Source: an uncultured Bacilli bacterium
Lineage (GTDB): Bacteria > Bacillota_I > Bacilli_A > RF39 > UBA660
Reading direction: 5' to 3'
DNA: 64,000 nucleotides
Assembly: GCA_944358115.1 (NCBI GenBank)
Contig: CALVQH010000001.1
Span: 5,263 to 69,262 of the forward strand
Each line of letters opens with the position of its first letter. The first letter of the stretch is position 1. The position numbers and the translations under genes are program-made. The notes under the pieces were generated by a model, which saw only the letters and a program-made list of their open reading frames with translations, did not search any database and had not been told where the DNA came from. Below are positions 3,346-51,771 of the stretch, piece after piece.

Positions 3346-5052
3346 ATGAAAAAAAGCACAAAAATAACCCTTTTAGTAGCAGGAGCACTAGTAATATTAT
3401 TGGGAATGATTGGAATAACCTATGCCTTTTTCTCAACAGGAGGAAGTCAAGAACAAGCAAATACTTTTACAAGTGGATGCTTAAATATAAGCTTAACAGA
3501 TGCCTCATCATCAATTAGTTTATCTAATATCTATCCAATTACAGATGTTGAAGGGTTAGAGGGAACTAGTTATGATTTTACAATTACTAATACTTGTAAT
3601 ACTTCTACTAATTATTCCATTAATCTAGAAAGTTTAAATCAAGTATCCAATTCATTAAGTGCAGATTATATTAAAGTAGCACTATCTAGTGATACAGTAG
3701 GAAATGTCATATCAATATTAAGTGACAATACAAGTGTAACACCAGAAATAGATGGAGCTTATGAATCATATAATTTATATACGGGAACACTAGGAGCAAG
3801 TGAAGCAAAAACATATCACTTAAAACTATGGTTAGATTATGATGCAACGGTTGAGCAAGCAGCAAATAAAGTATACTCATCTAAAATAAATGTAATAGCT
3901 AATTCAGAAACACAAGTAGTAGATACATTAGAAGCAACATTTGAACTAAATGATACAACTTTAACATCAAATCTAACAAGTAATGTAACAAGCGCAACAT
4001 ATTGCACTACAACTGATAACATCTGTACACCGGGTACAAGCGCTATAATAGAAGATAATAAATATACAGTTGAAATGGGAAGCAATGCAAATATGCAAAT
4101 GATTTGTACTAAGTTAAATGAAACGAGTAAGTTAATATGTGGAAGCCCTATAAAAATAACAGCAAAAGATATAATATTAGCAGATAACGAAGTTAATGGT
4201 GTGCCAAATTTTAATCAAATTGCAACAGCGGATGAAGGAATGTATACTACACTTGACAATTTAGGAACCAGCTATTACTTTAGAGGGGCAGTCACCAATA
4301 ACTATGTTCAATTTGCAGGATACTACTGGAGAATTATTCGAATTAATGGAGATGACTCAATTCGATTAATTTATGACGGAACAAGTGCTCATGCAAATGG
4401 CGAATCATCCGCGGATAGACAAATTCAAACAAGCGTATATAGTACAAGTCTAAATTATAATTATAGTTACTATGTAGGCTTTACCTATCAAGCAAATACT
4501 CAAAGGCCTTTAGTTCAAAATGAGGAAATATCAAGCACAATTAAAAATGTGTTAGATAATTGGTATACAGAACACTTACAAGAATTTGACAATATTATAA
4601 TAAGTAAACCTGGATTTTGTAATGATAGAAATTCGTATTCTGATGAAAACGGAATAACATCATCATGGGTAGCAAATGGAGCTGTGATTTATTATTCAGC
4701 ATACATAAGAGTAGTAACAAATAAGACTCCTACGTTGCAATGCAATAATAATAGTGATTGGTATATAACTAATATAGGATTAATTACGGCAGACGAAGTA
4801 CTGATGGCTGGTGGTGGATATTTAACTAATAATGATAGTTATTATTTGTATACCGGACAGAATTATTGGACTATGTCTCCTTATAATTTTAATGGCAACA
4901 ATGCTGTTATGTTTGCAGTAGATTTGTATGGGATTCTTGGCTGGGATTATGTCTCTATCGAATGGGGCGTCCGTCCTGTCATCAATCTTTCAGCAGATGT
5001 CACTATTTCCTCGGGAGATGGAACCATAAATAATCCTTATGTAATTGCATAA
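3346..5052 (+). CDS. Secreted protein with SipW-type/TasA-camelysin-like N-terminus and the shared paralog C-terminal domain (paralog 1)
   Basis: MKK...TYAFFSTGG signal peptide plus NTFTSGCLNISL (TasA/camelysin-like). Ser/Thr-rich linker. The C-terminus YYWRIIRINGDDSIRLIYDG...ITADEV...YWTMSPY...GVRPVINL...GDGTINNPYVIA matches the 14166 and 59740 proteins. Confidence 0.7.
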   Translation: MKKSTKITLLVAGALVILLGMIGITYAFFSTGGSQEQANTFTSGCLNISLTDASSSISLSNIYPITDVEGLEGTSYDFTITNTCNTSTNYSINLESLNQVSNSLSADYIKVALSSDTVGNVISILSDNTSVTPEIDGAYESYNLYTGTLGASEAKTYHLKLWLDYDATVEQAANKVYSSKINVIANSETQVVDTLEATFELNDTTLTSNLTSNVTSATYCTTTDNICTPGTSAIIEDNKYTVEMGSNANMQMICTKLNETSKLICGSPIKITAKDIILADNEVNGVPNFNQIATADEGMYTTLDNLGTSYYFRGAVTNNYVQFAGYYWRIIRINGDDSIRLIYDGTSAHANGESSADRQIQTSVYSTSLNYNYSYYVGFTYQANTQRPLVQNEEISSTIKNVLDNWYTEHLQEFDNIIISKPGFCNDRNSYSDENGITSSWVANGAVIYYSAYIRVVTNKTPTLQCNNNSDWYITNIGLITADEVLMAGGGYLTNNDSYYLYTGQNYWTMSPYNFNGNNAVMFAVDLYGILGWDYVSIEWGVRPVINLSADVTISSGDGTINNPYVIA

Positions 5053-10921: not shown

Positions 10922-11806
10922 ATGGCAATTCTTTTAAAGAAAAAATTAGAAGTAATGAATCATTTAAAAAACGAAGTAGAATTCATTGAAAAGTTAAATG
11001 AAAAAAAGCCTCATGTGAAAGTAGGAATCTTGAATTTAATGCCAACCCTAGAAGATACTGAAAGACAATTAATGGTTGCTCTTGATACCAAATTGTTGCA
11101 AGTAGAACTAGACTTTTTATATTTAGATACCAAAATAGTAGAGAAAGAAAAAAAAGAGTATTATAAAAAATATTATCGTTCTTTTAGCGAAATAAAAAAA
11201 GAGGACTATGACGGTATCATTATCACCGGTGCTCCTCTTGAACATATTAATTATCATGATATTGATTATATTGAAGAATTAAAAGAATTCTTTAAATACA
11301 CGAAACAACATGTAAGATCAACTCTTTTTTTATGCTGGGCCTCTCAATTCGGTTTACAATATTTTTATGGTGTCAATCGCTATAATTTACCAGAAAAGTT
11401 ATCAGGGATATATGAACATTATATTGTAAAAGAAACGAATTTAGTAAAAGGTTTAAATGATTATTTTTTAGTACCCCAATCAAGATATTGTAGTGTGATT
11501 GAAAGTGAAATTATGGATCGTAAGGATCTTATATTAACAAGCAAATCCAATGAATCTGGACCTTATATTATTGAAAGTATTGATGGCAGTAAAGTCTTTT
11601 TAACAGGACATGCTGAATATGATTTATACACGCTAGATAAAGAATACAAACGAGATATAAATAAAGGATTAAAAATAGATCCGCCATGTAATTATTATAA
11701 AGAGAATGATCCAAAGAAGGATCCAATCTATTCATGGCATGCAACTTCAACCATTATTTATCATAATTGGTTATATTACTATGTTTACGAAGAAGAAGTA
11801 ATGTGA
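10922..11806 (+). CDS. metA: Homoserine O-acyltransferase (MetA family)
   Basis: VGILNLMP...ETQLM...GAPLEH motifs of the MetA/HTS family. Confidence 0.8.
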   Translation: MAILLKKKLEVMNHLKNEVEFIEKLNEKKPHVKVGILNLMPTLEDTERQLMVALDTKLLQVELDFLYLDTKIVEKEKKEYYKKYYRSFSEIKKEDYDGIIITGAPLEHINYHDIDYIEELKEFFKYTKQHVRSTLFLCWASQFGLQYFYGVNRYNLPEKLSGIYEHYIVKETNLVKGLNDYFLVPQSRYCSVIESEIMDRKDLILTSKSNESGPYIIESIDGSKVFLTGHAEYDLYTLDKEYKRDINKGLKIDPPCNYYKENDPKKDPIYSWHATSTIIYHNWLYYYVYEEEVM

Positions 11807-12102
11807 AGAATTTGCCGAAAAGAAAGTATTTTTCCACATCCAAGTTCAATAGTTTTTGAATTTGGATGTATTTTTTTGATTGTACTTTGAATTTCTCTTA
11901 TTTTTCCTGCTTCATAAAAAGTAAGAACAATAGAATCTTTACTATAATAAGCATCCATAATTTCTTCGCTTAAAAAACTAATTTCTTCAGGAAATAAAGT
12001 TGGTTTTTGGAAAACTTGCTGTTCATCAATTTCTCGAAAAACTTCCTTCGAAGGAATAAGAGATTCGAAAGGCCGCCATTTGACAAAACCACGATCAATC
12101 AT
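11785..12102 (-). CDS. YolD-like protein (UmuD-like accessory of the Y-family polymerase)
   Basis: ~105-aa protein immediately downstream of, and overlapping, the Y-family polymerase gene, as in Bacillus uvrX/yolD and yqjW/yqjX pairs. Confidence 0.45.
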   Translation of the reverse strand: MIDRGFVKWRPFESLIPSKEVFREIDEQQVFQKPTLFPEEISFLSEEIMDAYYSKDSIVLTFYEAGKIREIQSTIKKIHPNSKTIELGCGKILSFRQILHITSSS

Positions 12103-13370
12103 GCACTGTGTCCTCCAATCTTTTTATTTCTTTCATAAATGGTTGAATCTGGAAGTAAACTAGATGCTTTTAAAAGAGCATTTTTTCCATACTTATCTTT
12201 AATTTCTAATATAGCTTGATTAATTTGTTCTTGTTCCTTCACTTTTTCTACTTCATCAAAAATATTTAATTGAACTCCTGTTTTATCTTTAAGTTCACCA
12301 CAAGAAACAGTAACCTTACGAATAGGTAATCCTTCATAAAACTTATCAAAAATCATAAGACAGTTTGCTAAAATAACTTGTTCTACATCAGTTGGATTAT
12401 TAAGCTTGATTTGATGAAAGAACCCACCGCCAACACTTTTAGAATATCCAATTCCAAGTCCAATAACAGAAGTGGTTTTATGGTTTTTATAAAGACGAAT
12501 AGCAATTACTTCAACCATTTCTCGAATAATAATTTTAATATTATCACCATGATAATCTTTAAATAGTACTTGACTATGAGAATAAGATTTATCTTCTACT
12601 TTTCCCATATCTCCAATCCGACTTAAATCAATCCCGTTTGCATGATTCCAAAGCTCTTCGCCAATTACTCCGAATTTTTGTTTTAATTCATGACGATCAA
12701 AATGAGCTAAATCATACATCGAATAAATACCTAGTTTATTGAGATTTGCTTCCATCCTCGGGCCAATTCCCCAAACTCTAGATAGGGGAGAAATGCACCA
12801 TAATTTAGTTGGAATATCATCATAATCCCATTTAGCAATAAAATCTTGATTATGTTTTGCTTCAATATCCATACTAACTTTAGCGAGTAACATATTAGGT
12901 CCAATCCCACAAGTAGCGCATAAGCCAGTAGATTTTTTTACATCTTTTAAAATATCTAAGGCAAGCTCATAATCACTTTTTCCATACATTTTAAGATAGT
13001 CCGTAACATCCAAAAAACATTCATCAATCGAATAAATATGTAAATCTTCTTTTGCAACATATTTTAAATAAACTTCAACAACCTCTCTAGATTTCGCTAA
13101 ATATAGGCTCATTCGTGGTTTTGCAATGGTATATTGAATGTGTTTTGGTATTTGATAAAGTCGTCCTCGAGAGGGAACACCTTTCGTTTTTAGATAAGGA
13201 CTAACAGCTAGAGTAATGGCACCATTACCTTGAGTAGGATTCGCAACCACTAAAGGATAATTAAAAGGATCTAATCCTCTTTCAATACATTCACAACTAG
13301 CAAAAAAACTTTTTAAATCAATACACAAAAAATGTCTGTGTAAATAAACCGTATCCATATGCATCACCAT
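12099..13370 (-). CDS. Y-family DNA polymerase (UmuC/DinB/UvrX-like)
   Basis: LCIDLKSFFASCE catalytic motif (D..FFAS.E). Palm and little-finger regions. Confidence 0.85.
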   Translation of the reverse strand: MVMHMDTVYLHRHFLCIDLKSFFASCECIERGLDPFNYPLVVANPTQGNGAITLAVSPYLKTKGVPSRGRLYQIPKHIQYTIAKPRMSLYLAKSREVVEVYLKYVAKEDLHIYSIDECFLDVTDYLKMYGKSDYELALDILKDVKKSTGLCATCGIGPNMLLAKVSMDIEAKHNQDFIAKWDYDDIPTKLWCISPLSRVWGIGPRMEANLNKLGIYSMYDLAHFDRHELKQKFGVIGEELWNHANGIDLSRIGDMGKVEDKSYSHSQVLFKDYHGDNIKIIIREMVEVIAIRLYKNHKTTSVIGLGIGYSKSVGGGFFHQIKLNNPTDVEQVILANCLMIFDKFYEGLPIRKVTVSCGELKDKTGVQLNIFDEVEKVKEQEQINQAILEIKDKYGKNALLKASSLLPDSTIYERNKKIGGHSA

Positions 13371-13434: not shown

Positions 13435-13890
13435 TTAATTTTTAACCAAATCTAGTTTTATCTCTTCATCGATTTTACCAGTAACAAAATCAGCTGAAAC
13501 ATGAAAGTACTTACAAAAGCCTATAATATAACTCGTAAGAGCAAGATTAATGCCATTTTCATATTTACTAATAGAAGAACGAGTAATATTAAGAATTTTC
13601 GCAAGCTCATCTTGAGTCAAATCATTTTCGCGTCTAATTCTTTTAATTCTTTTAGCAAGTAATTTAGAATCAATTCTTTTACTATTTTCATATTCCCAAA
13701 CTTCAGTAAAACCTAAAACATAATCTAGTGATACATGAAAGATATTACAAAACTTATCTAATTGTCTTAATGGAATTAAATCATTTTCTCTTTCCCACAT
13801 GTTATAACTGTTCCTAGATACTCCTAGAATTTCCGCAACTTCTCTTTGCTTTAAATCAGCATATATTCTTACCTTTTTTAGTCTCATCAT
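13435..13890 (-). CDS. Tandem-HTH XRE-family transcriptional regulator (two HTH_XRE domains)
   Basis: Two repeats of 'L...R...L.Q.ELA..L..S...YS..E.G'. Divergent from paralog 2. Paralogous to 50613-51056 and 59106-59543. Confidence 0.8.
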   Translation of the reverse strand: MMRLKKVRIYADLKQREVAEILGVSRNSYNMWERENDLIPLRQLDKFCNIFHVSLDYVLGFTEVWEYENSKRIDSKLLAKRIKRIRRENDLTQDELAKILNITRSSISKYENGINLALTSYIIGFCKYFHVSADFVTGKIDEEIKLDLVKN

Positions 13891-14083
13891 CTTAAAACTC
13901 TCTTTCTTATGTAATCATTTTTACACAAAATATTAAAACAGAGAACTACACATAGTGATAAGAAATAAAAAGTAAATAAATATAACAAAATATAAAAATA
14001 AAATTACAAAATAATTGACAATCACTCAATAATAATGTATAGTAAAAATATATCATAGAAAAACATAGTAGAAAGAAATTGAA

Positions 14084-14113
14084 AAGTTTTGACAACGTTT
14101 GTCGAATACCATG
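14084..14113. promoter_or_regulatory. Conserved operator-like element upstream of paralog 2
   Basis: AAGTTTTGaCAAcgTTTGTCGAA matches the 3266-3295 element in 21 of 23 positions. A TTGACA-17-TATAGT promoter lies about 70 bp upstream. Confidence 0.5.
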
Positions 14114-14165
14114 TATTATCTATTAAAATGTGATATGATGCCAAAAGGAAAGGAAGAGAAGAAGA

Positions 14166-15380
14166 ATGGAGTTCGAAACTTTAAAACAAAGTCATTTAAA
14201 AAGAAATATTATGATAGGAGTAGTAGCAGTACTAATTATTAGTGCCGTAGTACTAAATTTTACCAGAGCAAAATACCGAGTGACACAATCAATACCTTTA
14301 GTCAATGGTACAATCAATTATAGTTTAGCAGACCTAAATATTGTAGCACTATACATTGATGGAGTAGCAGCTGACGAATTAGATAGTTCTAAAAATTATA
14401 CACTAGATACCGATCAAAGTACATGCACCTACAAAGATGGTAGCACAATTCAAAATTTAACATTAAATTATGATAGTGATACCAAAACATTTACGATTGC
14501 TCCTTATACAACCAAGGGAACAAAGTGTACATTGTATTTTGATGAACAAAAGATACCAGCAGTAGATGTAATAGAAGAAGCTTATAACACTAATCCAAAC
14601 ATGTTAGCATATGATGATTATGGAAATTTAAGATACATAGGAGCAGACCCAAATAATTATGTTTTATTTAATAATGAATTATGGAGGATCATAGGAGTAT
14701 TTAGTGAAGATACACATGGAGTAAGTGGAGAAAAATTAGTAAAAATAATTAGAAGTGAATCAATAGGAAGTATAGAATGGGATAGTGGTAACGTAAATGA
14801 TTGGTCCACAGCCAGTTTACAAACAACATTGAATGGGGATTATTTAAATGGAAGTGGAAGCTATGCTAGTACTGGGATAAAAAGTGATACAGCAAGAAAT
14901 ATGATTGAAACGGTAACATGGAAACTTGGTGGAAGAGCAAGTTATACAAGTTCCAGTAATGGACTAGCAAGTCATTTTTATGGATATGAAAGAGGAACAA
15001 CAGTATATAGTGGAAGACCAACAACATGGAGTGGAAAAGTAGCATTAATGTATCCAAGTGATTATGGATATGCCACAAGTGGAGGTTCAACAACAAATAG
15101 AGAAGCATGCCTAGCCAAAGAGTTGTACAACTGGGATTCGTCAAGTTTTAGCGATTGCAAGAACAATGACTGGCTTTATGATAGCAGTACATATCAATGG
15201 ACACTTACGCCGGGCTCGTCGCGTTCGGACTACGTCTTCCTTGTGGGCAAGCCTGGTTTTGTGGGCCGCAGCAATGCGAGCTACTCGAGCGAGGTCCGTC
15301 CTTCGGTATATCTAACATCGAATGTGAAAATCTCAGGAGGTGATGGAACTAGTAATAGTCCATACACTTTGGAGGTGTGA
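14166..15380 (+). CDS. Signal-anchored surface protein, paralog 2 of the GVRP-domain family
   Basis: N-terminal TM followed by TRAKYRVTQSIPLVNGTINYSLADLNIVA, nearly identical to the 59740 protein. The C-terminus LWRIIGVF...GVRPSVYL...GGDGTSNSPYTLEV is shared. The last ~200 nt are unusually GC-rich. Confidence 0.7.
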   Translation: MEFETLKQSHLKRNIMIGVVAVLIISAVVLNFTRAKYRVTQSIPLVNGTINYSLADLNIVALYIDGVAADELDSSKNYTLDTDQSTCTYKDGSTIQNLTLNYDSDTKTFTIAPYTTKGTKCTLYFDEQKIPAVDVIEEAYNTNPNMLAYDDYGNLRYIGADPNNYVLFNNELWRIIGVFSEDTHGVSGEKLVKIIRSESIGSIEWDSGNVNDWSTASLQTTLNGDYLNGSGSYASTGIKSDTARNMIETVTWKLGGRASYTSSSNGLASHFYGYERGTTVYSGRPTTWSGKVALMYPSDYGYATSGGSTTNREACLAKELYNWDSSSFSDCKNNDWLYDSSTYQWTLTPGSSRSDYVFLVGKPGFVGRSNASYSSEVRPSVYLTSNVKISGGDGTSNSPYTLEV

Positions 15381-15449
15381 TAAGGCTCGCAGGAAGAGGG
15401 AAGTCTTCCCGAGCCGGCGCCACTTATCCACAGGTAGGAAGTAGTAAAA

Positions 15450-15734
15450 GTGGGAATATATAATAGATATTATATTGCTAAGAAAAAACATCAAGAATAT
15501 CTTATTGTGATTATAAGAAAAGGAAAATATGTTTCTTATGGTATTGATGCTCTCATACTAAAACATTTAAAGACAAATGTGAATATAGAGCATCAACTAC
15601 AAGAAAAACATATTAATTATCTAATATTAGATAATTTAGATATTATAAGTAAATATGCTGATGAAAATAATCAGTATAATAAATATTTTTATTTAGAAAC
15701 AATTAGAAAAATATTAAATAAAATTGTAGGGTAA
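15450..15734 (+). CDS. Small ORF with MutS domain-I-like (mismatch-binding) N-terminal signature; possible gene remnant
   Basis: YYIAKKKHQEYLIVIIRKGKYVSYGIDA resembles MutS [28 protein letters not shown]. GTG start, weak RBS. Confidence 0.35.
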   Translation: MGIYNRYYIAKKKHQEYLIVIIRKGKYVSYGIDALILKHLKTNVNIEHQLQEKHINYLILDNLDIISKYADENNQYNKYFYLETIRKILNKIVG

Positions 15735-15751
15735 GTATTAGTAAAAAACCG

Positions 15752-15856
15752 AACTCGTCGAATTCGAACAACGTCTTCAATGTGAACAATACTGGTTATG
15801 TGAACAACAACAACAATGCGAACAACTCGAACGGGGTCCGTCCTAGAGCTTTCTAA
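15752..15856 (+). pseudogene. Degenerate partial copy of the 3' end of the 14166-15380 gene
   Basis: ~75% nt identity to 15214-15320. Translates to SSNSNNVFNVNNTGYVNNNNNANNSNGVRPRAF* versus the gene's SSRSDYVFLVGKPGFVGRSNASYSSEVRPSVYL. Differences are mostly G/C in the gene versus A in the copy. Confidence 0.6.
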
Positions 15857-15997
15857 TAATCGGGATTTTATGGTTAAGACTATAATTTGTGTATGTTAGA
15901 AAACATTACTTATCCTAAGGCTTAGCCTTGAATAACATATATGGATGGAAAGTGATACGTCACTTTCCTAGTACTATATATTAAGAAAAAAATTAAA

Positions 15998-16357
15998 ATG
16001 AAATTTGTAACAATTAGAAAAATGGGTTTATTTTATCAAGTATTTGATGATGATGCTTTCATATTGCATTATTTATTAGATTATAAAGTAATAGATAGGA
16101 AAGCAGGCTTTCCCAATAATGCAATTAATAAAGTAATAAATATTTTGGAAGCAAAAAAAATTAATTATAAGATTATTGGCGAGAATATAACAAAAGATTT
16201 TAAAGATTTAAATAAATATGCTTTTTATTTAGCAAAATCTAAAGACAAAATAGTTGTTCAAAATTTAATTCATAATATTGAATTAAAATTGGAAGAAAAA
16301 GATGAAAGCGAGTTGCTTCAAATATTAGAAGGAATTGAAAAACTGGTGAATGAATAA
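15998..16357 (+). CDS. Small ORF with MutS domain-I-like signature (119 aa)
   Basis: IRKMGLFYQVFDDDAFILHYLL...AGFPNNA...KKINYKIIGEN parallels MutS [15 protein letters not shown]...GVPYHS...KGYKVAICEQ. Confidence 0.4.
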   Translation: MKFVTIRKMGLFYQVFDDDAFILHYLLDYKVIDRKAGFPNNAINKVINILEAKKINYKIIGENITKDFKDLNKYAFYLAKSKDKIVVQNLIHNIELKLEEKDESELLQILEGIEKLVNE

Positions 16358-16461
16358 TGAGTTTCGAATTGTAAAAAATATGAAGCAATTTATTTTATCT
16401 CTAGATTCTTTTTTATCTTATAGGAAAGTACACGAAAAACGTGTATTTTTAAAACTTATTC

Positions 16462-16490
16462 TTGACGAACGTATGTATTTACAGTATAAT
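16462..16490 (+). promoter_or_regulatory. Sigma-70-type promoter for tnpB
   Basis: TTGACG, 17-nt spacer, TATAAT; about 20 nt upstream of the GGGGTGA RBS. Confidence 0.6.
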
Positions 16491-16509
16491 ACTATTATCA
16501 GGGGTGATT

Positions 16510-17652
16510 ATGATTATGAAAATACACAGGGCATATCAATTTCGTTTGTATCCAACAAAAGAACAAGAAGTAATTATTCGTAAAACATTTAGATGTACGA
16601 GATTTGTTTATAATTATTGTTTAGATTTAAAAAAGAAAAATAATTATTTAACTAAGTTTGACTTAATGAAAGAATTACCAAAATTAAAAAAAGAATATCC
16701 CTTTTTAAAAGAAATAGATAGTTGTTCCTTACAAAATGCCATTACAGATTTAATGGTAGGTTTTAGATTGTTTGAAAAAGGCCATGGAGGATATCCTAAG
16801 TTTAAGAAAAAAGGAGTAAAAGAAAGTTTCCGTACTAGTTTTATTACTAGTAGTTATAAAGGTACAATTTATGAAAATATAAAACTAGATTTAAAAAGAA
16901 GAATCATTGAATTACCAAAAATAAAAGAGATTAAAATAAGAGGATATCGTAATTTAGATAAGATTAGTGGAAGAATACTAAATGCCACGATAAGAGAAGT
17001 AGGCACTAGATTTTATGTGTCTGTATGTGTAGAAGAAGAAATCAAGTTACCAGAAAGAAAAAATAATCAAGCAGTAGGAATCGATATAGGAGTAAAGAAC
17101 TTAGTTGTAACAAGTAATAAAGAATATTATGGGAATCCCCGATATTTAGAAAAATATGAAAAAAAGATAAAAAGATTCCAACAAGAATTATCAAGAAAAA
17201 TAAAGGGAAGTAAAAACTATATTAAGTGTAAGAAAAAATTAGAAGAAGTATATCGAAAGCTAAAAAATGCAAGAAAAAAGACAGTAGAAGAAATAGTAGC
17301 CAAAATAATAGCCTTACATGATATTATTATTGCCGAGAATCTCCAAGTAAAGAAAATGTTAGAGCATAAAAATAACCACAAACATTTACGAAAAGAAATC
17401 ACAAATGCTACATTTAGTGAAATCATAAGAGTACTCAAATATAAGTGCAACTGGTTAAATAAGATATTTATTCAAGTAAATCCCTATTATGCAAGTAGTC
17501 AGATTTGTAGTGGATGTGGAAATAAAGAAAGTATTATGAAAGATATAAGAGTAAGAGAATATAAATGTAGTAAATGTGGTTTAGAAATAGAGAGAGATTA
17601 CAATGCAAGTTTGAATATATTAAAAGAAGGATTAAGATGTTACAATAATTAA
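16510..17652 (+). CDS. tnpB: TnpB (IS605 OrfB family RNA-guided endonuclease)
   Basis: N-terminal MKIHRAYQFRLYPTKEQ (OrfB_IS605 N-terminus). RuvC-like core. C-terminal zinc finger CSGCG...CSKCG. RBS GGGGTGA before ATG 16510. Confidence 0.85.
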   Translation: MIMKIHRAYQFRLYPTKEQEVIIRKTFRCTRFVYNYCLDLKKKNNYLTKFDLMKELPKLKKEYPFLKEIDSCSLQNAITDLMVGFRLFEKGHGGYPKFKKKGVKESFRTSFITSSYKGTIYENIKLDLKRRIIELPKIKEIKIRGYRNLDKISGRILNATIREVGTRFYVSVCVEEEIKLPERKNNQAVGIDIGVKNLVVTSNKEYYGNPRYLEKYEKKIKRFQQELSRKIKGSKNYIKCKKKLEEVYRKLKNARKKTVEEIVAKIIALHDIIIAENLQVKKMLEHKNNHKHLRKEITNATFSEIIRVLKYKCNWLNKIFIQVNPYYASSQICSGCGNKESIMKDIRVREYKCSKCGLEIERDYNASLNILKEGLRCYNN

Positions 17653-17770
17653 ATTAAATGAAAATAAAGAAAGAAAGTACGGGAGCAACTCTCGGAGTTT
17701 ATGTCTGTGATGTATTAAAATACAGCAGAAAAAAACGAATCGTGAGGTTCGGCGAATTAACGTAAGTTAA
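17600..17770 (+). ncRNA. Candidate TnpB-associated guide (omega-RNA) / IS right-end region
   Basis: Structured segment spanning the 3' end of tnpB and ~120 nt downstream. Stem-loops such as ctgtgatgtatt-aaa-atacagcag and the near-palindrome ttcggcgaa. By analogy to IS605-family omega-RNAs only. Confidence 0.25.
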
Positions 17771-18199
17771 TTCTTATGTTCTTTAAATAGATTAGACCAT
17801 TATATTATTCACAATTTACATTTAAAGTATTATGTTCGATATATGGATGACTTTTTAATATTTCATCATGACAAATATTATTTGGAAGAATGTCTAATTA
17901 AAATAAAATATCAATTAAATAACATTTATCATTTGAATATTAATGAAAATAAAACAAAGATAATTAATACAAAAGAAGGATTCGTCTTATTAGGTTATTA
18001 TTTTAAAATAAGAAATAAAAAGACAATAATAAAACAAACATGGAATAAAGTACAAAAAAGAATAAAAGATAGTAATGATTTATATAATAAAAAGCAAATA
18101 ACTTTTTCCAAATATTTTTCATCTATTAATAATTATCGCTTTACTTTTAAATATTCTAATAATCATAAAATAACAAAATATATTGAAAGAAATTATTAG
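17771..18199 (+). pseudogene. 5'-truncated reverse transcriptase (retron/group-II/Abi-like RT, C-terminal part only)
   Basis: The frame opens right after a stop at 17768 and reads ...NRLDHYIIHNLHLKYYVRYMDDFLIF (RT motif 5, YxDD), then LNINENKTKI (motif 6) and GFVLLGYYF (motif 7). No fingers/palm motifs 1-4 and no start codon. Confidence 0.65.
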
Positions 18200-18227
18200 A
18201 ATTGATATCATTGTATTGGTGAGTGTT

Positions 18228-18938
18228 ATGGATTTAAAAAATATTATATGGAATAAAAAAACATATCAAGAATTTATAGATTATTTAAAAAGTATAAGGG
18301 AAGAAGAATATAAAAAGTTTAGTGAAAAAATAACTTTTACGAAATATGAAATGTTAGGTATCAGACTTCCTGAATTAAGAAGAATATCAAAAGAAATAAG
18401 TGAATGTGATTATCAATCATTCTTAAAAGTAAGTGAATCAACTTATTATGAAGAAGTAATGATTTATTTATTAGTAATAGCTAATATCAAAAATATAAGC
18501 GAGTTAATGATTTATTTTGATCATGCTATAGCCTTAATTGATAATTGGGCTTTATGTGATACATTCTGTAATAGTTTAAAATTAGTAAATAAAAACAAAG
18601 AATATTTTTTAACTAAAATAGACGAATTAATGAATAGTAATAAAACATATCACATAAGAGTAGGGCTTATTTTATTATTATGCTTTTATGTAGAAGAAAA
18701 ATATTTAGATTTGATCTGTAAGTATTTAGATTGTATTAAAAGTGATGAATACTATGTGAATATGGCTGAAGCTTGGCTTGTATGTGAAATATTTATTAAG
18801 TATGAAAGTGTTGGTTTAAAATATTTAGAACATAATGAGCTAAATAAATTTACAATCAATAAGAGTATTAGCAAAATAAGAGACAGCTATCGAGTGGATA
18901 AGGAAATGAAAGAATATATTTTAAAATTTAAAAGATAA
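18228..18938 (+). CDS. DNA alkylation repair protein (AlkD/AlkC-like HEAT-repeat glycosylase family)
   Basis: Repeated helical motifs ending ...NWALCDTF... and YVNMAEAWLVCEIF, typical of the DNA_alkylation family. The GGTGAG RBS favours the start at 18228. Confidence 0.5.
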   Translation: MDLKNIIWNKKTYQEFIDYLKSIREEEYKKFSEKITFTKYEMLGIRLPELRRISKEISECDYQSFLKVSESTYYEEVMIYLLVIANIKNISELMIYFDHAIALIDNWALCDTFCNSLKLVNKNKEYFLTKIDELMNSNKTYHIRVGLILLLCFYVEEKYLDLICKYLDCIKSDEYYVNMAEAWLVCEIFIKYESVGLKYLEHNELNKFTINKSISKIRDSYRVDKEMKEYILKFKR

Positions 18939-50612: not shown

Positions 50613-51056
50613 TTACTCAGCATCTCTATCTTTTCCTAATATTTTATCTATCGAATAATGATATTTTTTGGCTAACTCATAAAGAGTAGTAGTAAGAATT
50701 AAATTCTTAGCATTCTCATATCGATTCCAAGTTGGCTGATTAATATTTAGCTCATTAGAAATCTGTACTTGAGTTAAACCTTTCTTTAACCTAATTTTTT
50801 TCAAATTTTCACCAGTGACCTTTATTTTAATGTCTGGTTTTTGATTGGCATATTTCTTTTTGTTGTTAAAACCAACAACATAGTCAATAGAAACTCCAAA
50901 ATAATTGCAGAATTGATTTAATCTTTTTAATGGGATAGTATCAGTACCACATTCCCACATACTGTAGGAACCTTTAGATACGCCCATTACTTCTGCAATA
51001 TCTTTTTGTTTCAAACCAGCATCTTCCCTGATTTCCTTCATTCTTGGAAAATTCAT
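50613..51056 (-). CDS. Tandem-HTH XRE-family regulator (third paralog)
   Basis: Two HTH_XRE repeats (LKQKDIAEVMGVSKGSYSMWE and LTQVQISNELNINQPTWNRYE). ATG at 51056 with a GGTGATAGG RBS. Confidence 0.75.
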   Translation of the reverse strand: MNFPRMKEIREDAGLKQKDIAEVMGVSKGSYSMWECGTDTIPLKRLNQFCNYFGVSIDYVVGFNNKKKYANQKPDIKIKVTGENLKKIRLKKGLTQVQISNELNINQPTWNRYENAKNLILTTTLYELAKKYHYSIDKILGKDRDAE

Positions 51057-51174
51057 ACCTATCACCAGTAATAATTTTCTCAAAAAATACGTAATTATTA
51101 ACATTTTGGAGTTTATATGCATAGCGTTTTACAATAAACATGATATATGATAAAATTATGTTAGGTGATAGTAC

Positions 51175-51771
51175 ATGAATAAAGCGTTTTCTATCGAAAA
51201 TTTATTTGATGAATTAAAAGATAACATAGAATTAGATGACGATATAGATGCTTTATTTAAAATATTAAAAGAAATATTAAAAAGAAATCCTAAAAAAGGG
51301 ATAGAAGATTGGCTATACTTGATGAGCAAATATGATTTTTTTAAAATCCAAAGAGATATGAACGTATATCCTTTAACAAATACCTTTTTATTAGAAATCG
51401 CCAAAAAAAGAACACTAATCTTTGCTTTAAAACTAATAAATGACTTACCCATATCAAATCAGAAGATAATTCAAAAGCATTTCTTAAATATATACCATTC
51501 TCAAAGTGGCCTAAATCAGTATTTTAAAGAAGTAGCTTTTAAAAAAGAACAAACAGAGCTTTTGTCGGAAATTAAATATGTCTTAAGCGATAAATTAAAA
51601 AAAGAAAAACTATTTTTTGATGAAACAGACTTTTTGAAAAAGATCATCTTGATAGGGTTAGAGCAGCCCCAACCCAATATAAACTTTTTGTTAGAGCTTG
51701 CTGAATTACCTAAGGCCAAAAAAGAAAGAGCAATATTAAAAACATTATTAATTGATTATATCTTTAAATAA
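51175..51771 (+). CDS. Hypothetical protein (198 aa), divergent from the XRE regulator
   Basis: ORF only. Confidence 0.3.
   Translation: MNKAFSIENLFDELKDNIELDDDIDALFKILKEILKRNPKKGIEDWLYLMSKYDFFKIQRDMNVYPLTNTFLLEIAKKRTLIFALKLINDLPISNQKIIQKHFLNIYHSQSGLNQYFKEVAFKKEQTELLSEIKYVLSDKLKKEKLFFDETDFLKKIILIGLEQPQPNINFLLELAELPKAKKERAILKTLLIDYIFK

What the first reader, a model, noticed from the sequence alone, without database searches (positions are those of the whole stretch)
15185..15856. Local GC spike at the 3' end of paralog 2 plus an AT-shifted ectopic partial copy 400 bp downstream
The last ~200 nt of the 14166-15380 gene and ~60 nt after it are about 50-55% GC in a genome near 28% GC (e.g. gggctcgtcgcgttcggactacgtcttccttgtgggcaagcctgg...). 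A ~105-nt segment at 15752-15856 is a recognisable copy of 15214-15320 (~75% identity). Nearly all its differences are G/C in the gene versus A in the copy, and it gives an Asn-rich in-frame peptide ending GVRPRAF*. The GC patch is followed by GC-rich hairpins (gctcg...gggaag-tc-cttccc...cgagc). This suggests either a silent 3' cassette for recombination with the paralog family or a recent foreign/gene-converted patch.
Basis: seen in the sequence. Interest (0 to 1): 0.6.

Follow-up and report, generated by a model that had tools for sequence, protein, structure and literature searches.

The report
Broken diversity-generating retroelement: VR/TR pair
The GC-rich gene end and its A-rich downstream copy are the variable and template repeats of a diversity-generating retroelement, a known system that rewrites a surface protein's binding site; here an insertion sequence has disabled it.

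Summary
Window 15210-15302, at the 3' end of gene 14166-15380, and 15749-15844 are a 93/96-nt repeat. 20 of its 22 substitutions sit at adenines of the downstream copy (P = 5e-11). All 30 of those adenines occupy codon positions 1-2. This is the VR/TR pair of a diversity-generating retroelement (DGR), not a recombination cassette or a foreign patch.

Supporting evidence:
- The TR is 99-100% identical in seven related lineages, whereas their VRs are 65-80% identical.
- A syntenic relative (L012) carries the full cassette: target, MSL1, TR, MSL2, bAvd, RT.
- A structured RNA with strong covariation follows the TR. It includes a 9-bp stem with a UACG tetraloop, like the described Avd-binding stem-loop.
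- A GC-rich hairpin after the target stop codon is conserved in position across the family.
- The GC spike is family-wide: VR 55% and TR 46% against 27% for the surrounding DNA.

In this window a TnpB-only IS200/IS605 element (16416-17783) has replaced 890 bp. That removed bAvd codons 23-112 and RT residues 1-216. The VR looks frozen, because it is the same in strains 1-2% diverged.

This is a known kind of system and a degenerate new member. Interest is low to moderate.

The parts
14166..15380 (+). DGR target gene (variable protein, 404 aa). It has an N-terminal membrane anchor (predicted helix 8-36), a beta-rich middle part, and a C-terminal DUF6273-like (C-type-lectin-like) domain that carries the VR.
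   Evidence: ORF. No Pfam hit for the protein itself. Homologs P0062 and P0091 hit DUF6273. The model (pLDDT 63.6) matches the T. ramosa IgA peptidase 9qa6, E 8e-7, whose N-terminal domain is DUF6273 (PMC12402451). It also matches phage DUF6273 proteins at E 1e-8 to 1e-5.
15210..15302 (+). Variable repeat (VR), 93 nt. Adenine-derived substitutions span 15213-15289.
   Evidence: In 36 homologs of 83-99% identity, column entropy is 1.43 bits in the VR against 0.19 elsewhere, at the codons that are AAC/AAT in the TR.
15293..15320 (+). IMH-like 3' boundary of the VR: GC-rich GGTCCGTCCT followed by an imperfect repeat. The counterpart IMH* in the TR is 15835-15861.
   Evidence: homology is perfect through GTCCGTCCT and imperfect after it (TCGGTATATCTAACATCG against AGAGCTTTCTAATAATCG). 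The definition of IMH/IMH* is from PMC5758913.
15384..15415 (.). GC-rich inverted repeat 3 nt after the target stop codon (12 bp with a 2-nt bulge and a 6-nt loop). No T-tract follows.
   Evidence: dG -12.6, z -3.2. No terminator call on the + strand. In 31 relatives the 60 nt after the target stop are 43% GC with MFE -17.9, against 23.5% and -6.2 for 186 other genes (P about 1e-12). Sequences differ between relatives but the position is conserved.
15441..15734 (+). MSL1: small MutS-domain-I-like accessory ORF (97 aa from the GTG at 15441; 94 aa from 15450).
   Evidence: (MutS_I E 0.098). The profile-profile comparison to MSL2 gives probability 97.2%, E 4e-11.
15749..15844 (+). Template repeat (TR), 96 nt. 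It has 30 scored adenines, all at codon positions 1-2 of the VR frame. It is not part of an ORF.
   Evidence: It is 99-100% identical in 7 lineages whose VRs are 65-80% identical.
15845..15990 (+). Structured RNA 3' of the TR, analogous to the BPP-1 'Sp' region. It has a helix enclosing a UAAG-loop hairpin (15868-15885), a variable hairpin, and an outer helix enclosing a 9-bp stem with a UACG tetraloop (15947-15968).
   Evidence: 30 pairs, 25 with compensatory changes. 96.4% of cells are paired, against 70% in shuffles and 40-47% with slid partners. 64 such UACG hairpins lie on the RT strand of the loci against 1 on the other strand. No Rfam family matches. It fits the 9-bp, tetraloop-capped 'Avd-binding stem-loop' of Handa et al..
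15998..16357 (+). MSL2: MutS-domain-I-like accessory ORF (119 aa).
   Evidence: MutS_I 19.5 bits, cut-off 20.6. Homolog P0144 scores 27.3 bits, above the cut-off. MSL genes are described as DGR accessories in PMC5758913.
16350..16415 (+). Remnant of bAvd: the first 22 codons only.
   Evidence: tblastn with L012 Avd matches residues 1-22 at 100%. L012 Avd hits PF22296 bAvd.
16416..17783 (+). TnpB-only IS200/IS605-family element (tnpB ORF 16462-17652, with about 130 nt of 3' end region). It replaces 890 bp of the ancestral cassette. The right end is uncertain by about 3 nt.
   Evidence: (OrfB_IS605; NF040570 guided_TnpB at 280 bits against a cut-off of 100).
17783..18199 (+). Remnant of the DGR reverse transcriptase: residues 217-357 of the 357-aa ortholog. 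YMDD is at 17840-17851.
   Evidence: RVT_1 positions 135-204 of 205, E 6e-9. (95% identical to L012 RT residues 217-357). Translation.

Best explanation
The finding is the variable repeat (VR) and template repeat (TR) of a chromosomal diversity-generating retroelement (DGR), in an uncultured low-GC gut bacterium of the class Bacilli.

In the intact form, seen at the same chromosomal position in a sister lineage, the cassette reads: target gene(VR), MSL1, TR, structured RNA, MSL2, bAvd, RT. An RNA containing the TR and its 3' structured region is bound by RT and Avd and is reverse-transcribed. Random nucleotides are inserted opposite template adenines. The cDNA then replaces the VR, up to a GC-rich IMH boundary.

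The TR's adenines all sit in the first two positions of AAC/AAT codons. This randomises about 15 residues of a DUF6273/C-type-lectin-like binding surface on a membrane-anchored protein, without ever creating stop codons.

The GC spike is a by-product. The non-adenine scaffold of the TR/VR is 68% GC, and 16 of the 20 mutated adenines became G or C.

In this genome the machinery is broken. A TnpB-only IS200/IS605 element has replaced 890 bp, which held bAvd codons 23-112 and RT residues 1-216. The present VR is therefore most likely a frozen record of the last retrohoming event.

Shown here: the repeat, the A-bias, the codon placement, TR invariance against VR hypervariability, the gene content of relatives, the RNA covariation, and the IS replacement. 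Inferred from the Bordetella phage paradigm: the biochemical steps, the roles of the two hairpins and the MSL proteins, and present inactivity.

The stated confidence of 0.93 is for the identification as a DGR VR/TR pair. I put the sub-claim that it is now inactive at about 0.8.
For: - A-specific differences: 20 of 22, P = 4.9e-11. All 30 TR adenines lie at codon positions 1-2.
- It is the only A-biased repeat pair in the window.
- TR is 99-100% identical, and VRs 65-80%, among 7 lineages.
- Hypervariable columns in 36 close homologs coincide with the TR's AAY codons.
- The syntenic locus L012 has intact bAvd (PF22296) and a 357-aa RT (RVT_1, containing IGNLTSQ), with 20 of 21 VR/TR mismatches at A.
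- 48 of 82 loci fetched with this RT have A-biased VR/TR pairs. In the 42 best pairs, 669 of 726 mismatches lie at A.
- The structured RNA 3' of the TR shows strong covariation. Its 9-bp stem with a UNCG loop fits published DGR RNA elements.
- The GC-rich post-stop hairpin is specific to DGR targets.
- MSL accessory genes are known in DGRs.
- The GC spike is general: VR 55%, TR 46%, locus 27%.
- IS replacement.
- Frozen VR: strains L092-L094 are 98.2-99.1% identical in the flanks and share all A-derived positions. L092 still has avd sequence past the IS junction.
- There are two non-A substitutions, one of them (15292) specific to this lineage.
Against: - No experiment and no read-level data, so activity or inactivity is inferred.
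- Contigs from three other samples break inside or just after the VR (L003, L004, L005). Two of them carry a different VR 3' part on an otherwise about 99.9% identical, IS-bearing background.
- L095 also has the IS and a different VR. This could mean continued diversification in trans. However, the L095 difference lies inside a wider divergent block, and contig ends can be chimeric.
- The VR is 3 nt shorter than the TR.
- The GC-rich hairpin lies about 65 nt beyond the IMH, not adjacent to it as in phage BPP-1.
- The fold assignment of the target rests on a moderate model (pLDDT 63.6).
Confidence: 0.93

Rival explanations
1. The element is still diversifying. The cis RT and Avd are lost, but the intact TR, structured RNA, MSL1 and MSL2 are serviced in trans by the RT-Avd of a second DGR elsewhere in the genome.
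For: - L003 and L004 (about 99.9% identical, IS present) start with a different VR 3' part: SSYLATNSYGVSP against the window's RSNASYSSEVRP. Four of seven differences in the aligned part are at TR-A sites.
- Three of six assemblies break at the VR.
- L095 has the IS plus a different VR.
- MSL1, MSL2, the TR and the RNA are undamaged.
- Related MAGs can carry several RT loci. For example, isolate Lapin-023 bin34 has L016, L028 and L035.
Against: - No second RT or Avd in the 64-kb window.
- The L003/L004 variants include non-A changes (15296-97) and sit at contig ends, where co-occurring strains can be joined.
- The L095 difference lies inside a 77-95% identity block that spans the gene's 3' half, which points to allelic exchange.
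- L092-L094 show the VR unchanged over 1-2% divergence.
Confidence: 0.1
2. First reader, option 1: the downstream fragment is a silent cassette that recombines (gene conversion) with the 3' ends of the paralog family, as in pilS/pilE or vls systems.
For: There is an unexpressed partial copy close to an expressed surface-protein gene. Paralogs exist in the window. There is strain mosaicism in the target gene.
Against: - Gene conversion would copy the donor faithfully. Here the recipient differs from the donor almost only at donor adenines.
- There is a single donor, invariant across lineages.
- The paralogs lack any matching segment.
- RT and Avd are adjacent in relatives.
Confidence: 0.02
3. 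First reader, option 2: the GC-rich patch is recently acquired foreign DNA or a converted tract from a GC-richer source.
For: The local GC of 50-62% in a 29.5% GC window is striking.
Against: - The patch is syntenic and present in all relatives.
- The same GC excess is seen at the VRs and TRs of 41 of 42 related DGR loci.
- The reading frame and the conserved scaffold residues (VF.V..G...GVRP) are shared with AT-richer paralogs.
- Part of the excess is explained by A-to-G/C substitutions relative to the TR.
Confidence: 0.01

Closest known systems
Bordetella phage BPP-1 DGR (mtd-avd-TR-brt), the prototype
   Same: - VR at the 3' end of the target gene, with an invariant TR nearby.
- Adenine-specific differences, and AAY codon design.
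- A GC-rich IMH-like boundary, with an imperfect IMH* in the TR.
- Avd plus RT in the intact relatives.
- A structured RNA 3' of the TR that includes a tetraloop-capped stem of the kind shown to bind Avd.
- A GC-rich inverted repeat downstream of the VR.
   Different: - Chromosomal in a low-GC Bacilli genome, not in a phage.
- The gene upstream of the TR is an MSL gene rather than avd, and there are two extra MutS-I-like genes.
- The UACG stem-loop lies about 100 nt after the TR rather than at its edge.
- The inverted repeat lies about 65 nt past the IMH, just after the stop codon.
- The target is a DUF6273-like membrane-anchored protein, not a tail fibre.
- In this window RT and Avd are destroyed.
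MSL-containing DGRs ('Architecture D' of Wu et al. 2018, PMC5758913; includes the Legionella DGR)
   Same: Small neutral MutS-domain-I-like accessory ORFs that co-occur with avd. Indels in the VR opposite AAC runs are documented there.
   Different: Here two distant MSL paralogs flank the TR (hhalign 97%), and 41 of the related loci have both. I did not check whether that two-MSL arrangement is among the 16 catalogued cases.
DUF6273 / C-type-lectin-like DGR targets of gut Bacillota phages (tentaclins and Faecalibacterium prophage targets; PMC10743442, PMC11792537)
   Same: The VR is embedded in a DUF6273-like globular domain that the cited paper describes as C-type-lectin-like.
   Different: This is a cellular, membrane-anchored protein, part of a very large chromosomal family (more than 7,900 hits), rather than a phage receptor-binding protein. 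The sequence itself falls below the Pfam threshold.
   Same: An unexpressed donor copy supplies variation to an expressed surface-protein gene.
   Different: Information flows through RNA and reverse transcription, with adenine mutagenesis. There is one invariant donor, and no RecA-type copying of alternative cassettes.

Membership tests
Diversity-generating retroelement (DGR) | A TR/VR pair whose differences are (almost) confined to adenines of the TR | tested here: met
   20 of 22 substitutions at TR adenines, P = 4.9e-11. It is the only such pair among 30 repeat pairs in the window.
Diversity-generating retroelement (DGR) | TR adenines placed so that mutagenesis changes amino acids without making stop codons (AAY codons, positions 1-2) | tested here: met
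   30 of 30 TR adenines lie at codon positions 1-2 of the VR frame. The TR peptide is Asn-rich.
Diversity-generating retroelement (DGR) | The TR is invariant while the VR is hypervariable among relatives | tested here: met
   TR 99-100% against VR 65-80% identity among 7 lineages. VR-column entropy is 1.43 bits against 0.19 bits elsewhere.
Diversity-generating retroelement (DGR) | An intact DGR-type reverse transcriptase encoded next to the TR | tested here: not met
   Only residues 217-357 remain. The syntenic ortholog in L012 is intact at 357 aa, matches RVT_1, and contains IGNLTSQ. The I/LGxxxSQ hallmark is cited from my own knowledge, because I did not find it in the papers I opened. The window therefore holds a degenerate DGR, not a complete one.
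Diversity-generating retroelement (DGR) | Accessory protein Avd | tested here: not met
   Only codons 1-22 remain (16350-16415). It is intact as bAvd (PF22296, E 3e-8, below the gathering score) in L012, and precomputed as bAvd in L007 and L011.
Diversity-generating retroelement (DGR) | IMH at the VR 3' end and a non-identical IMH* at the TR 3' end, beginning with a GC-rich segment | tested here: met
   GGTCCGTCCT is shared, and imperfect similarity follows it. The criterion is from PMC5758913. Function was not tested.
Diversity-generating retroelement (DGR) | The VR lies in a C-type-lectin (or Ig) fold domain at the C-terminus of the target | tested here: inconclusive
Diversity-generating retroelement (DGR) | RT-dependent mutagenic retrohoming demonstrated | not testable with these tools
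   This needs experiments or read-level population data.
DGR RNA 'Avd-binding stem-loop' (Handa et al., bioRxiv 10.1101/2023.10.23.563531) | A stem of about 9 bp capped by a GNRA or UNCG tetraloop, downstream of the TR | tested here: met
   15947-15968 is a 9-bp stem with a UACG loop, and every one of the 7 aligned stem pairs shows compensatory changes. It lies about 100 nt after the TR, not immediately after it. Binding to Avd was not tested.
MSL (MutS-like) DGR accessory proteins (Wu et al. 2018) | A small protein with similarity to MutS domain I, encoded in a DGR cassette that also has avd | tested here: inconclusive
   MSL2 scores 19.5 bits against a cut-off of 20.6. Its homolog P0144 scores 27.3 bits. 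MSL1 is linked only through a profile match to MSL2. Co-occurrence with avd is met in relatives.
IS200/IS605-family TnpB element | A TnpB (OrfB_IS605 plus zinc-ribbon TNB domain) ORF, an element present or absent at a precise junction, and no TnpA | tested here: met
   NF040570 at 280 bits against a cut-off of 100, plus Pfam OrfB_IS605, Cas12f1-like_TNB and HTH_OrfB_IS605. Empty-site comparison with L011, L012 and L092. The omega-RNA and transposition ends were not characterised, and Rfam gave no hit.

The most novel reading that the evidence does not exclude
After losing its own RT and Avd to an IS insertion, this cassette may remain in use. It retains the target VR, MSL1, the TR, the structured RNA and MSL2. 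Its TR RNA would be reverse-transcribed in trans by the RT-Avd of another DGR in the same genome. The variant VR ends seen on IS-bearing contigs from other samples would then reflect ongoing diversification. That would show natural trans-complementation between DGRs, and would suggest that the MSL/TR-RNA module is the locus-specific part of the system.
Probability: 0.1. Interest if true: 0.5.

Novelty: new member of a known kind. Interest (0 to 1): 0.25.

Why it matters
The case shows that a sharp GC spike at a gene's 3' end, paired with an A-rich near-copy, can flag DGRs directly from raw sequence in very AT-rich genomes. In this clade VRs average 55% GC against 27% for the surrounding DNA.

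The locus belongs to a large DGR lineage that appears to have little annotation, in uncultured gut Bacilli: 429 loci in species-representative genomes. That lineage diversifies a membrane-anchored DUF6273-like surface protein. It offers natural material for open questions about what MutS-like accessory proteins do in DGRs, and about what the RNA and DNA hairpins contribute. Here that material is two MSL paralogs, a well-covarying TR-proximal RNA, and a positionally conserved post-stop hairpin.

The IS-mediated loss of RT and Avd is a clean example of how DGRs decay, leaving 'orphan' VR/TR pairs. For this particular window the result is mainly an annotation: a known mechanism, now inactivated.

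Tried and rejected
- Rfam scan of 13900-18400 at E <= 1: no family, neither for the post-TR RNA nor for the TnpB 3' end.
- Profile of 91 target homologs against PDB sequences: no hit at E <= 1.
- Pfam and NCBIfam on the target protein itself: nothing.
- Search for a second target of this TR in the window, using degenerate non-A patterns with 3 mismatches: only the VR and the TR.
- Search for a second RT or Avd in the window: none.
- Intrinsic terminator reading of the GC-rich hairpin: no T-tract and no + strand terminator call. The two paralogs end in ordinary AT-rich, T-tailed hairpins.
- Use of the L003/L004 contig starts and of L095 as proof of trans activity: rejected as inconclusive. The issues are non-A changes, contig-end position, and a wider divergent block. 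No fetched protein or locus carries the L003 variant in full.
- The exact-TR scan of metagenome contigs returned a single locus, too few for population statistics.
- My first automated VR/TR scan found nothing because the BLAST penalties were too harsh. It was redone with 1/-1 scoring.
- Alternative genetic code (TGA = Trp) as the cause of split RT ORFs in relatives: not pursued. Long ORFs, up to 2054 aa, read through under table 11.
Full report
**1. The observation**

The 3' part of gene 14166-15380 and a segment about 540 nt downstream are a genuine repeat.
- Local alignment pairs 15210-15317 with 15749-15858. The core is 15210-15302 (93 nt) against 15749-15844 (96 nt), with one 3-nt gap inside the downstream copy's AAC-AAC-AAC-AAC run.
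- The alignment score is 102, against a mean of 23 and a maximum of 37.5 in 300 shuffles.
- Patterns made from the shared non-A positions occur only at these two places in 64 kb, with 0 expected.
- The GC profile is as described: 0.50, 0.62, 0.52, 0.44 and 0.49 in 100-nt windows from 15150 to 15449, against 0.295 for the window.
- The hairpin after the stop codon exists at 15384-15415: GGCTCG-CA-GGAAGA-[GGGAAG]-TCTTCC-CGAGCC. As DNA it folds at -12.6 kcal/mol, z = -3.2.

**2. What the differences say**

- In the 93 aligned core positions there are 22 substitutions, and 20 are at adenines of the downstream copy. That copy has 30 adenines, so the hypergeometric P is 4.9e-11.
- All 30 adenines lie at codon positions 1 or 2 of the gene's reading frame, and none at position 3.
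- Read in that frame, the copy gives PNSSNSNNVFNVNNTGYVNNNNNANNSNGVRP, followed by RAF and a stop.
- This is the design of a DGR template repeat. AAC/AAT codons can mutate at A to many amino acids but never to a stop.
- Among 30 repeat pairs in the window, this is the only A-biased one.

**3. Surroundings in the window**

| Coordinates | Feature |
|---|---|
| 15441-15734 | 94-97-aa ORF with a faint MutS_I signal, between VR and TR |
| 15998-16357 | 119-aa ORF after the TR, just under the MutS_I threshold |
| 16350 onward | Short ORF |
| 16462-17652 | TnpB gene (guided_TnpB, 280 bits) |
| 17771-18199 | C-terminal part of a reverse transcriptase (RVT_1 positions 135-204 of 205; YMDD at 17840-17851) |

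**4. Relatives**

- The same arrangement, IS included, is found in several metagenome assemblies at 99.7-100% identity (L001-L006).
- A sister lineage at the same chromosomal position carries the complete cassette. This is L012, about 88% nucleotide identity, with the same HTH regulator upstream and the same DNA-alkylation-repair gene downstream. The cassette reads: target (406 aa), ORF97, TR, ORF119, bAvd (112 aa), RT (357 aa, containing GLPIGNLTSQ). 20 of its 21 VR/TR mismatches are at A, with no indel.
- Alignment to L011 and L012 shows that window 16416-17783 (the IS) replaces 890 bp. That stretch encoded bAvd codons 23-112 and RT residues 1-216.
- The window has no other RT or Avd.

**5. 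TR constant, VR variable**

- Across seven lineages whose flanks differ by 1-12%, the TR is 99-100% identical. The VRs are 65-80% identical to each other.
- In 36 homologs of the target protein at 83-99% identity, column entropy is 1.43 bits in the VR against 0.19 elsewhere. The variable columns are the AAY codons of the TR.
- VR length is 93 or 96 nt, depending on one codon in the AAC run. This kind of indel is documented for DGRs (PMC5758913).
- With an RT alignment, 429 loci were confirmed in species-representative genomes, nearly all of them uncultured gut Bacilli MAGs.
- 48 of the 82 examined loci have A-biased VR/TR pairs. In the 42 best pairs, 669 of 726 mismatches are at A.

**6. The GC spike explained**

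- The non-A positions of the TR are 68% GC. Of the 20 mutated adenines, 16 became G or C. As a result the VR is 63% GC and the TR is 46%.
- The same holds family-wide: VR 55%, TR 46%, locus 27%. The VR is richer than its locus in 41 of 42 loci.
- The patch is therefore a conserved, intrinsic property of the element and not foreign DNA.

**7. The hairpin after the gene**

- In relatives the VR ends 66-84 nt before the stop codon. A GC-rich hairpin of unrelated sequence follows the stop directly, without a T-tract.
- The 60 nt after DGR-target stop codons are 43% GC and fold at -17.9 kcal/mol. For 186 other genes in the same loci the values are 23.5% and -6.2. P is about 1e-12.
- The two paralogs in the window end instead in AT-rich, T-tailed terminators.
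- This fits the GC-rich inverted repeat that enhances retrohoming in the Bordetella and Legionella DGRs and is found in about a third of DGRs. Here, however, it lies about 65 nt past the IMH-like boundary (15293-15320).

**8. RNA downstream of the TR**

- The 150 nt between the TR and the next ORF form a conserved structure:
  - a helix enclosing a UAAG-loop hairpin (15868-15885);
  - a variable hairpin;
  - an outer helix enclosing a 9-bp stem with a UACG tetraloop (15947-15968).
- In a 20-sequence alignment, 25 of 30 pairs keep pairing through double changes. 96.4% of cells are paired, against 70% in shuffles and 40-47% with slid partners.
- Hairpins with a UACG (TACG in DNA) loop and a stem of at least 6 bp, most of them 9 bp, occur 64 times on the RT strand of the loci and once on the other strand.
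- Rfam has no matching family.
- Handa et al. describe putative Avd-binding stem-loops downstream of TRs in 207 DGRs. These are most often 9 bp and capped by GNRA or UNCG tetraloops. This is the same kind of element.

**9. Accessory ORFs**

- The two small ORFs are distant paralogs (hhalign probability 97.2%, E 4e-11). 41 related loci have both.
- A homolog of the second passes the Pfam MutS_I threshold.
- MutS-like (MSL) accessory genes that co-occur with avd are a described DGR class (PMC5758913).

**10. The target protein**

- It has an N-terminal helix (membrane anchor), beta-rich domains and a C-terminal domain bearing the VR (pLDDT 63.6).
- Foldseek matches the Thomasclavelia ramosa IgA peptidase (9qa6, E 8e-7). 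That enzyme's N-terminal domain is DUF6273.
- Foldseek also matches phage DUF6273 proteins. Two homologs hit DUF6273 weakly.
- DUF6273-like domains have been described as C-type-lectin-like and as DGR targets.
- I regard the fold assignment as likely but not settled.

**11. Is it still active?**

- Strains L092-L094 are 98.2-99.1% identical in the flanks. They have the same VR at every A-derived position.
- L092 continues as intact avd sequence beyond 16415, so this VR state predates the IS.
- The window's VR has two non-A substitutions, and the one at 15292 is lineage-specific. This indicates a frozen VR.
- Against that, the L003 and L004 contigs begin inside the VR with a different 3' part, L005 begins just after the VR, and L095 carries the IS with another VR.
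- The L095 difference lies within a 77-95% identity block covering the gene's 3' half, in an otherwise 98-100% identical region. Its right IS flank leads to an unrelated gene.
- Allelic exchange, and joins across a repeated IS or co-occurring strains, are therefore sufficient explanations. I give trans-complemented activity about 0.1.

**12. Verdict**

- This is a DGR VR/TR pair, with its IMH, GC-rich inverted repeat, TR-proximal structured RNA and MSL genes intact. Avd and RT were destroyed by a TnpB-only IS.
The mechanism is retrohoming, not recombination, and the GC patch is not foreign.
- It is a known kind of system, a new and degenerate member. Interest is about 0.25.

Noticed in passing
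window 16416-17783: A TnpB-only IS200/IS605-family element with no tnpA. It is bounded on the left by ...TCTTTTTTA|TCTTATAGG, with a hairpin GTACACG-AAAAA-CGTGTAT at 16429-16447. In the uninterrupted relative L012, the left breakpoint directly follows TTTTTTA and the right one lies 0-3 nt after another TTTTTTA. This suggests target-site or microhomology involvement in the 890-bp loss. Contigs L005 and L006 end inside its left part, so it is probably multi-copy.
   Followed up: partly
window 13435-15380, 50613-51771, 59106-61074: A divergently transcribed module, a double-HTH Xre-type regulator on the minus strand next to a plus-strand ORF, occurs three times. The regulators are 38-43% identical to each other. 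Two of the plus-strand genes are paralogs sharing the membrane-anchor and N-terminal part (44.6% identity).
   Followed up: partly
window 3346-5052 and 59707-61074: The two paralogs keep the VR scaffold (WT.SP...VF.V..G...G[VI]RPVINL...GDGT..PY) and show a milder GC rise there (0.45-0.52). 3346-5052 even has GGCGTCCGTCCT, almost the IMH-like motif. Neither has a cognate TR in the window. They could be former or remote DGR targets, or never-diversified family members.
   Followed up: partly
L065 4558-5913, L066 4224-5913, L072 4875-5912: In some related loci the hairpin with a 9-bp stem and a UACG loop recurs 4-6 times at a 332-341-nt period. Several TR-like copies were also detected in L080 and L088. 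This suggests tandem arrays of TR-plus-RNA units in some DGRs of this family.
   Followed up: no
L007 2629-3514 (the same protein in L008-L010); L011 2293-3367: The RT genes of other relatives are split into two ORFs: 112 + 145 aa, identical in four independent assemblies, and 157 + 174 aa. DGR decay, or recurrent frameshifts in A-runs, therefore seems common in this clade. L011's VR also has more non-A mismatches than the others (5 of 27).
   Followed up: partly
L095 8419-13101 (OLSM01002161.1): The same IS at the same left junction is followed on the right by an unrelated sequence and a 1124-aa ORF that looks like a pyruvate:ferredoxin oxidoreductase (judged by eye from the sequence, not tested), instead of the RT remnant. 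This is either an IS-mediated rearrangement or an assembly join across a repeated IS.
   Followed up: partly
window 14250-15250 compared with L095; 12474-13711 compared with L092: Identity between strains is mosaic. Long stretches are 99-100% identical and are interrupted by blocks at 77-95%, including the 3' half of the target gene. This indicates homologous exchange of alleles among strains, independent of the DGR.
   Followed up: partly
window 11785-13370 (- strand): A Y-family DNA polymerase (IMS, IMS_C, 423 aa) with a YolD-like small ORF lies immediately upstream of the DGR's HTH regulator. This is a translesion-synthesis pair next to a mutagenic retroelement, and probably a coincidence.
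   Followed up: no
window 15210-15302 compared with relatives: VR length polymorphism. It is 93 nt in the window, L011, L013, L092 and L095, and 96 nt (equal to the TR) in L012 and L014. The difference is one codon opposite the TR's (AAC)4 run, consistent with slippage during cDNA synthesis or integration.
   Followed up: yes
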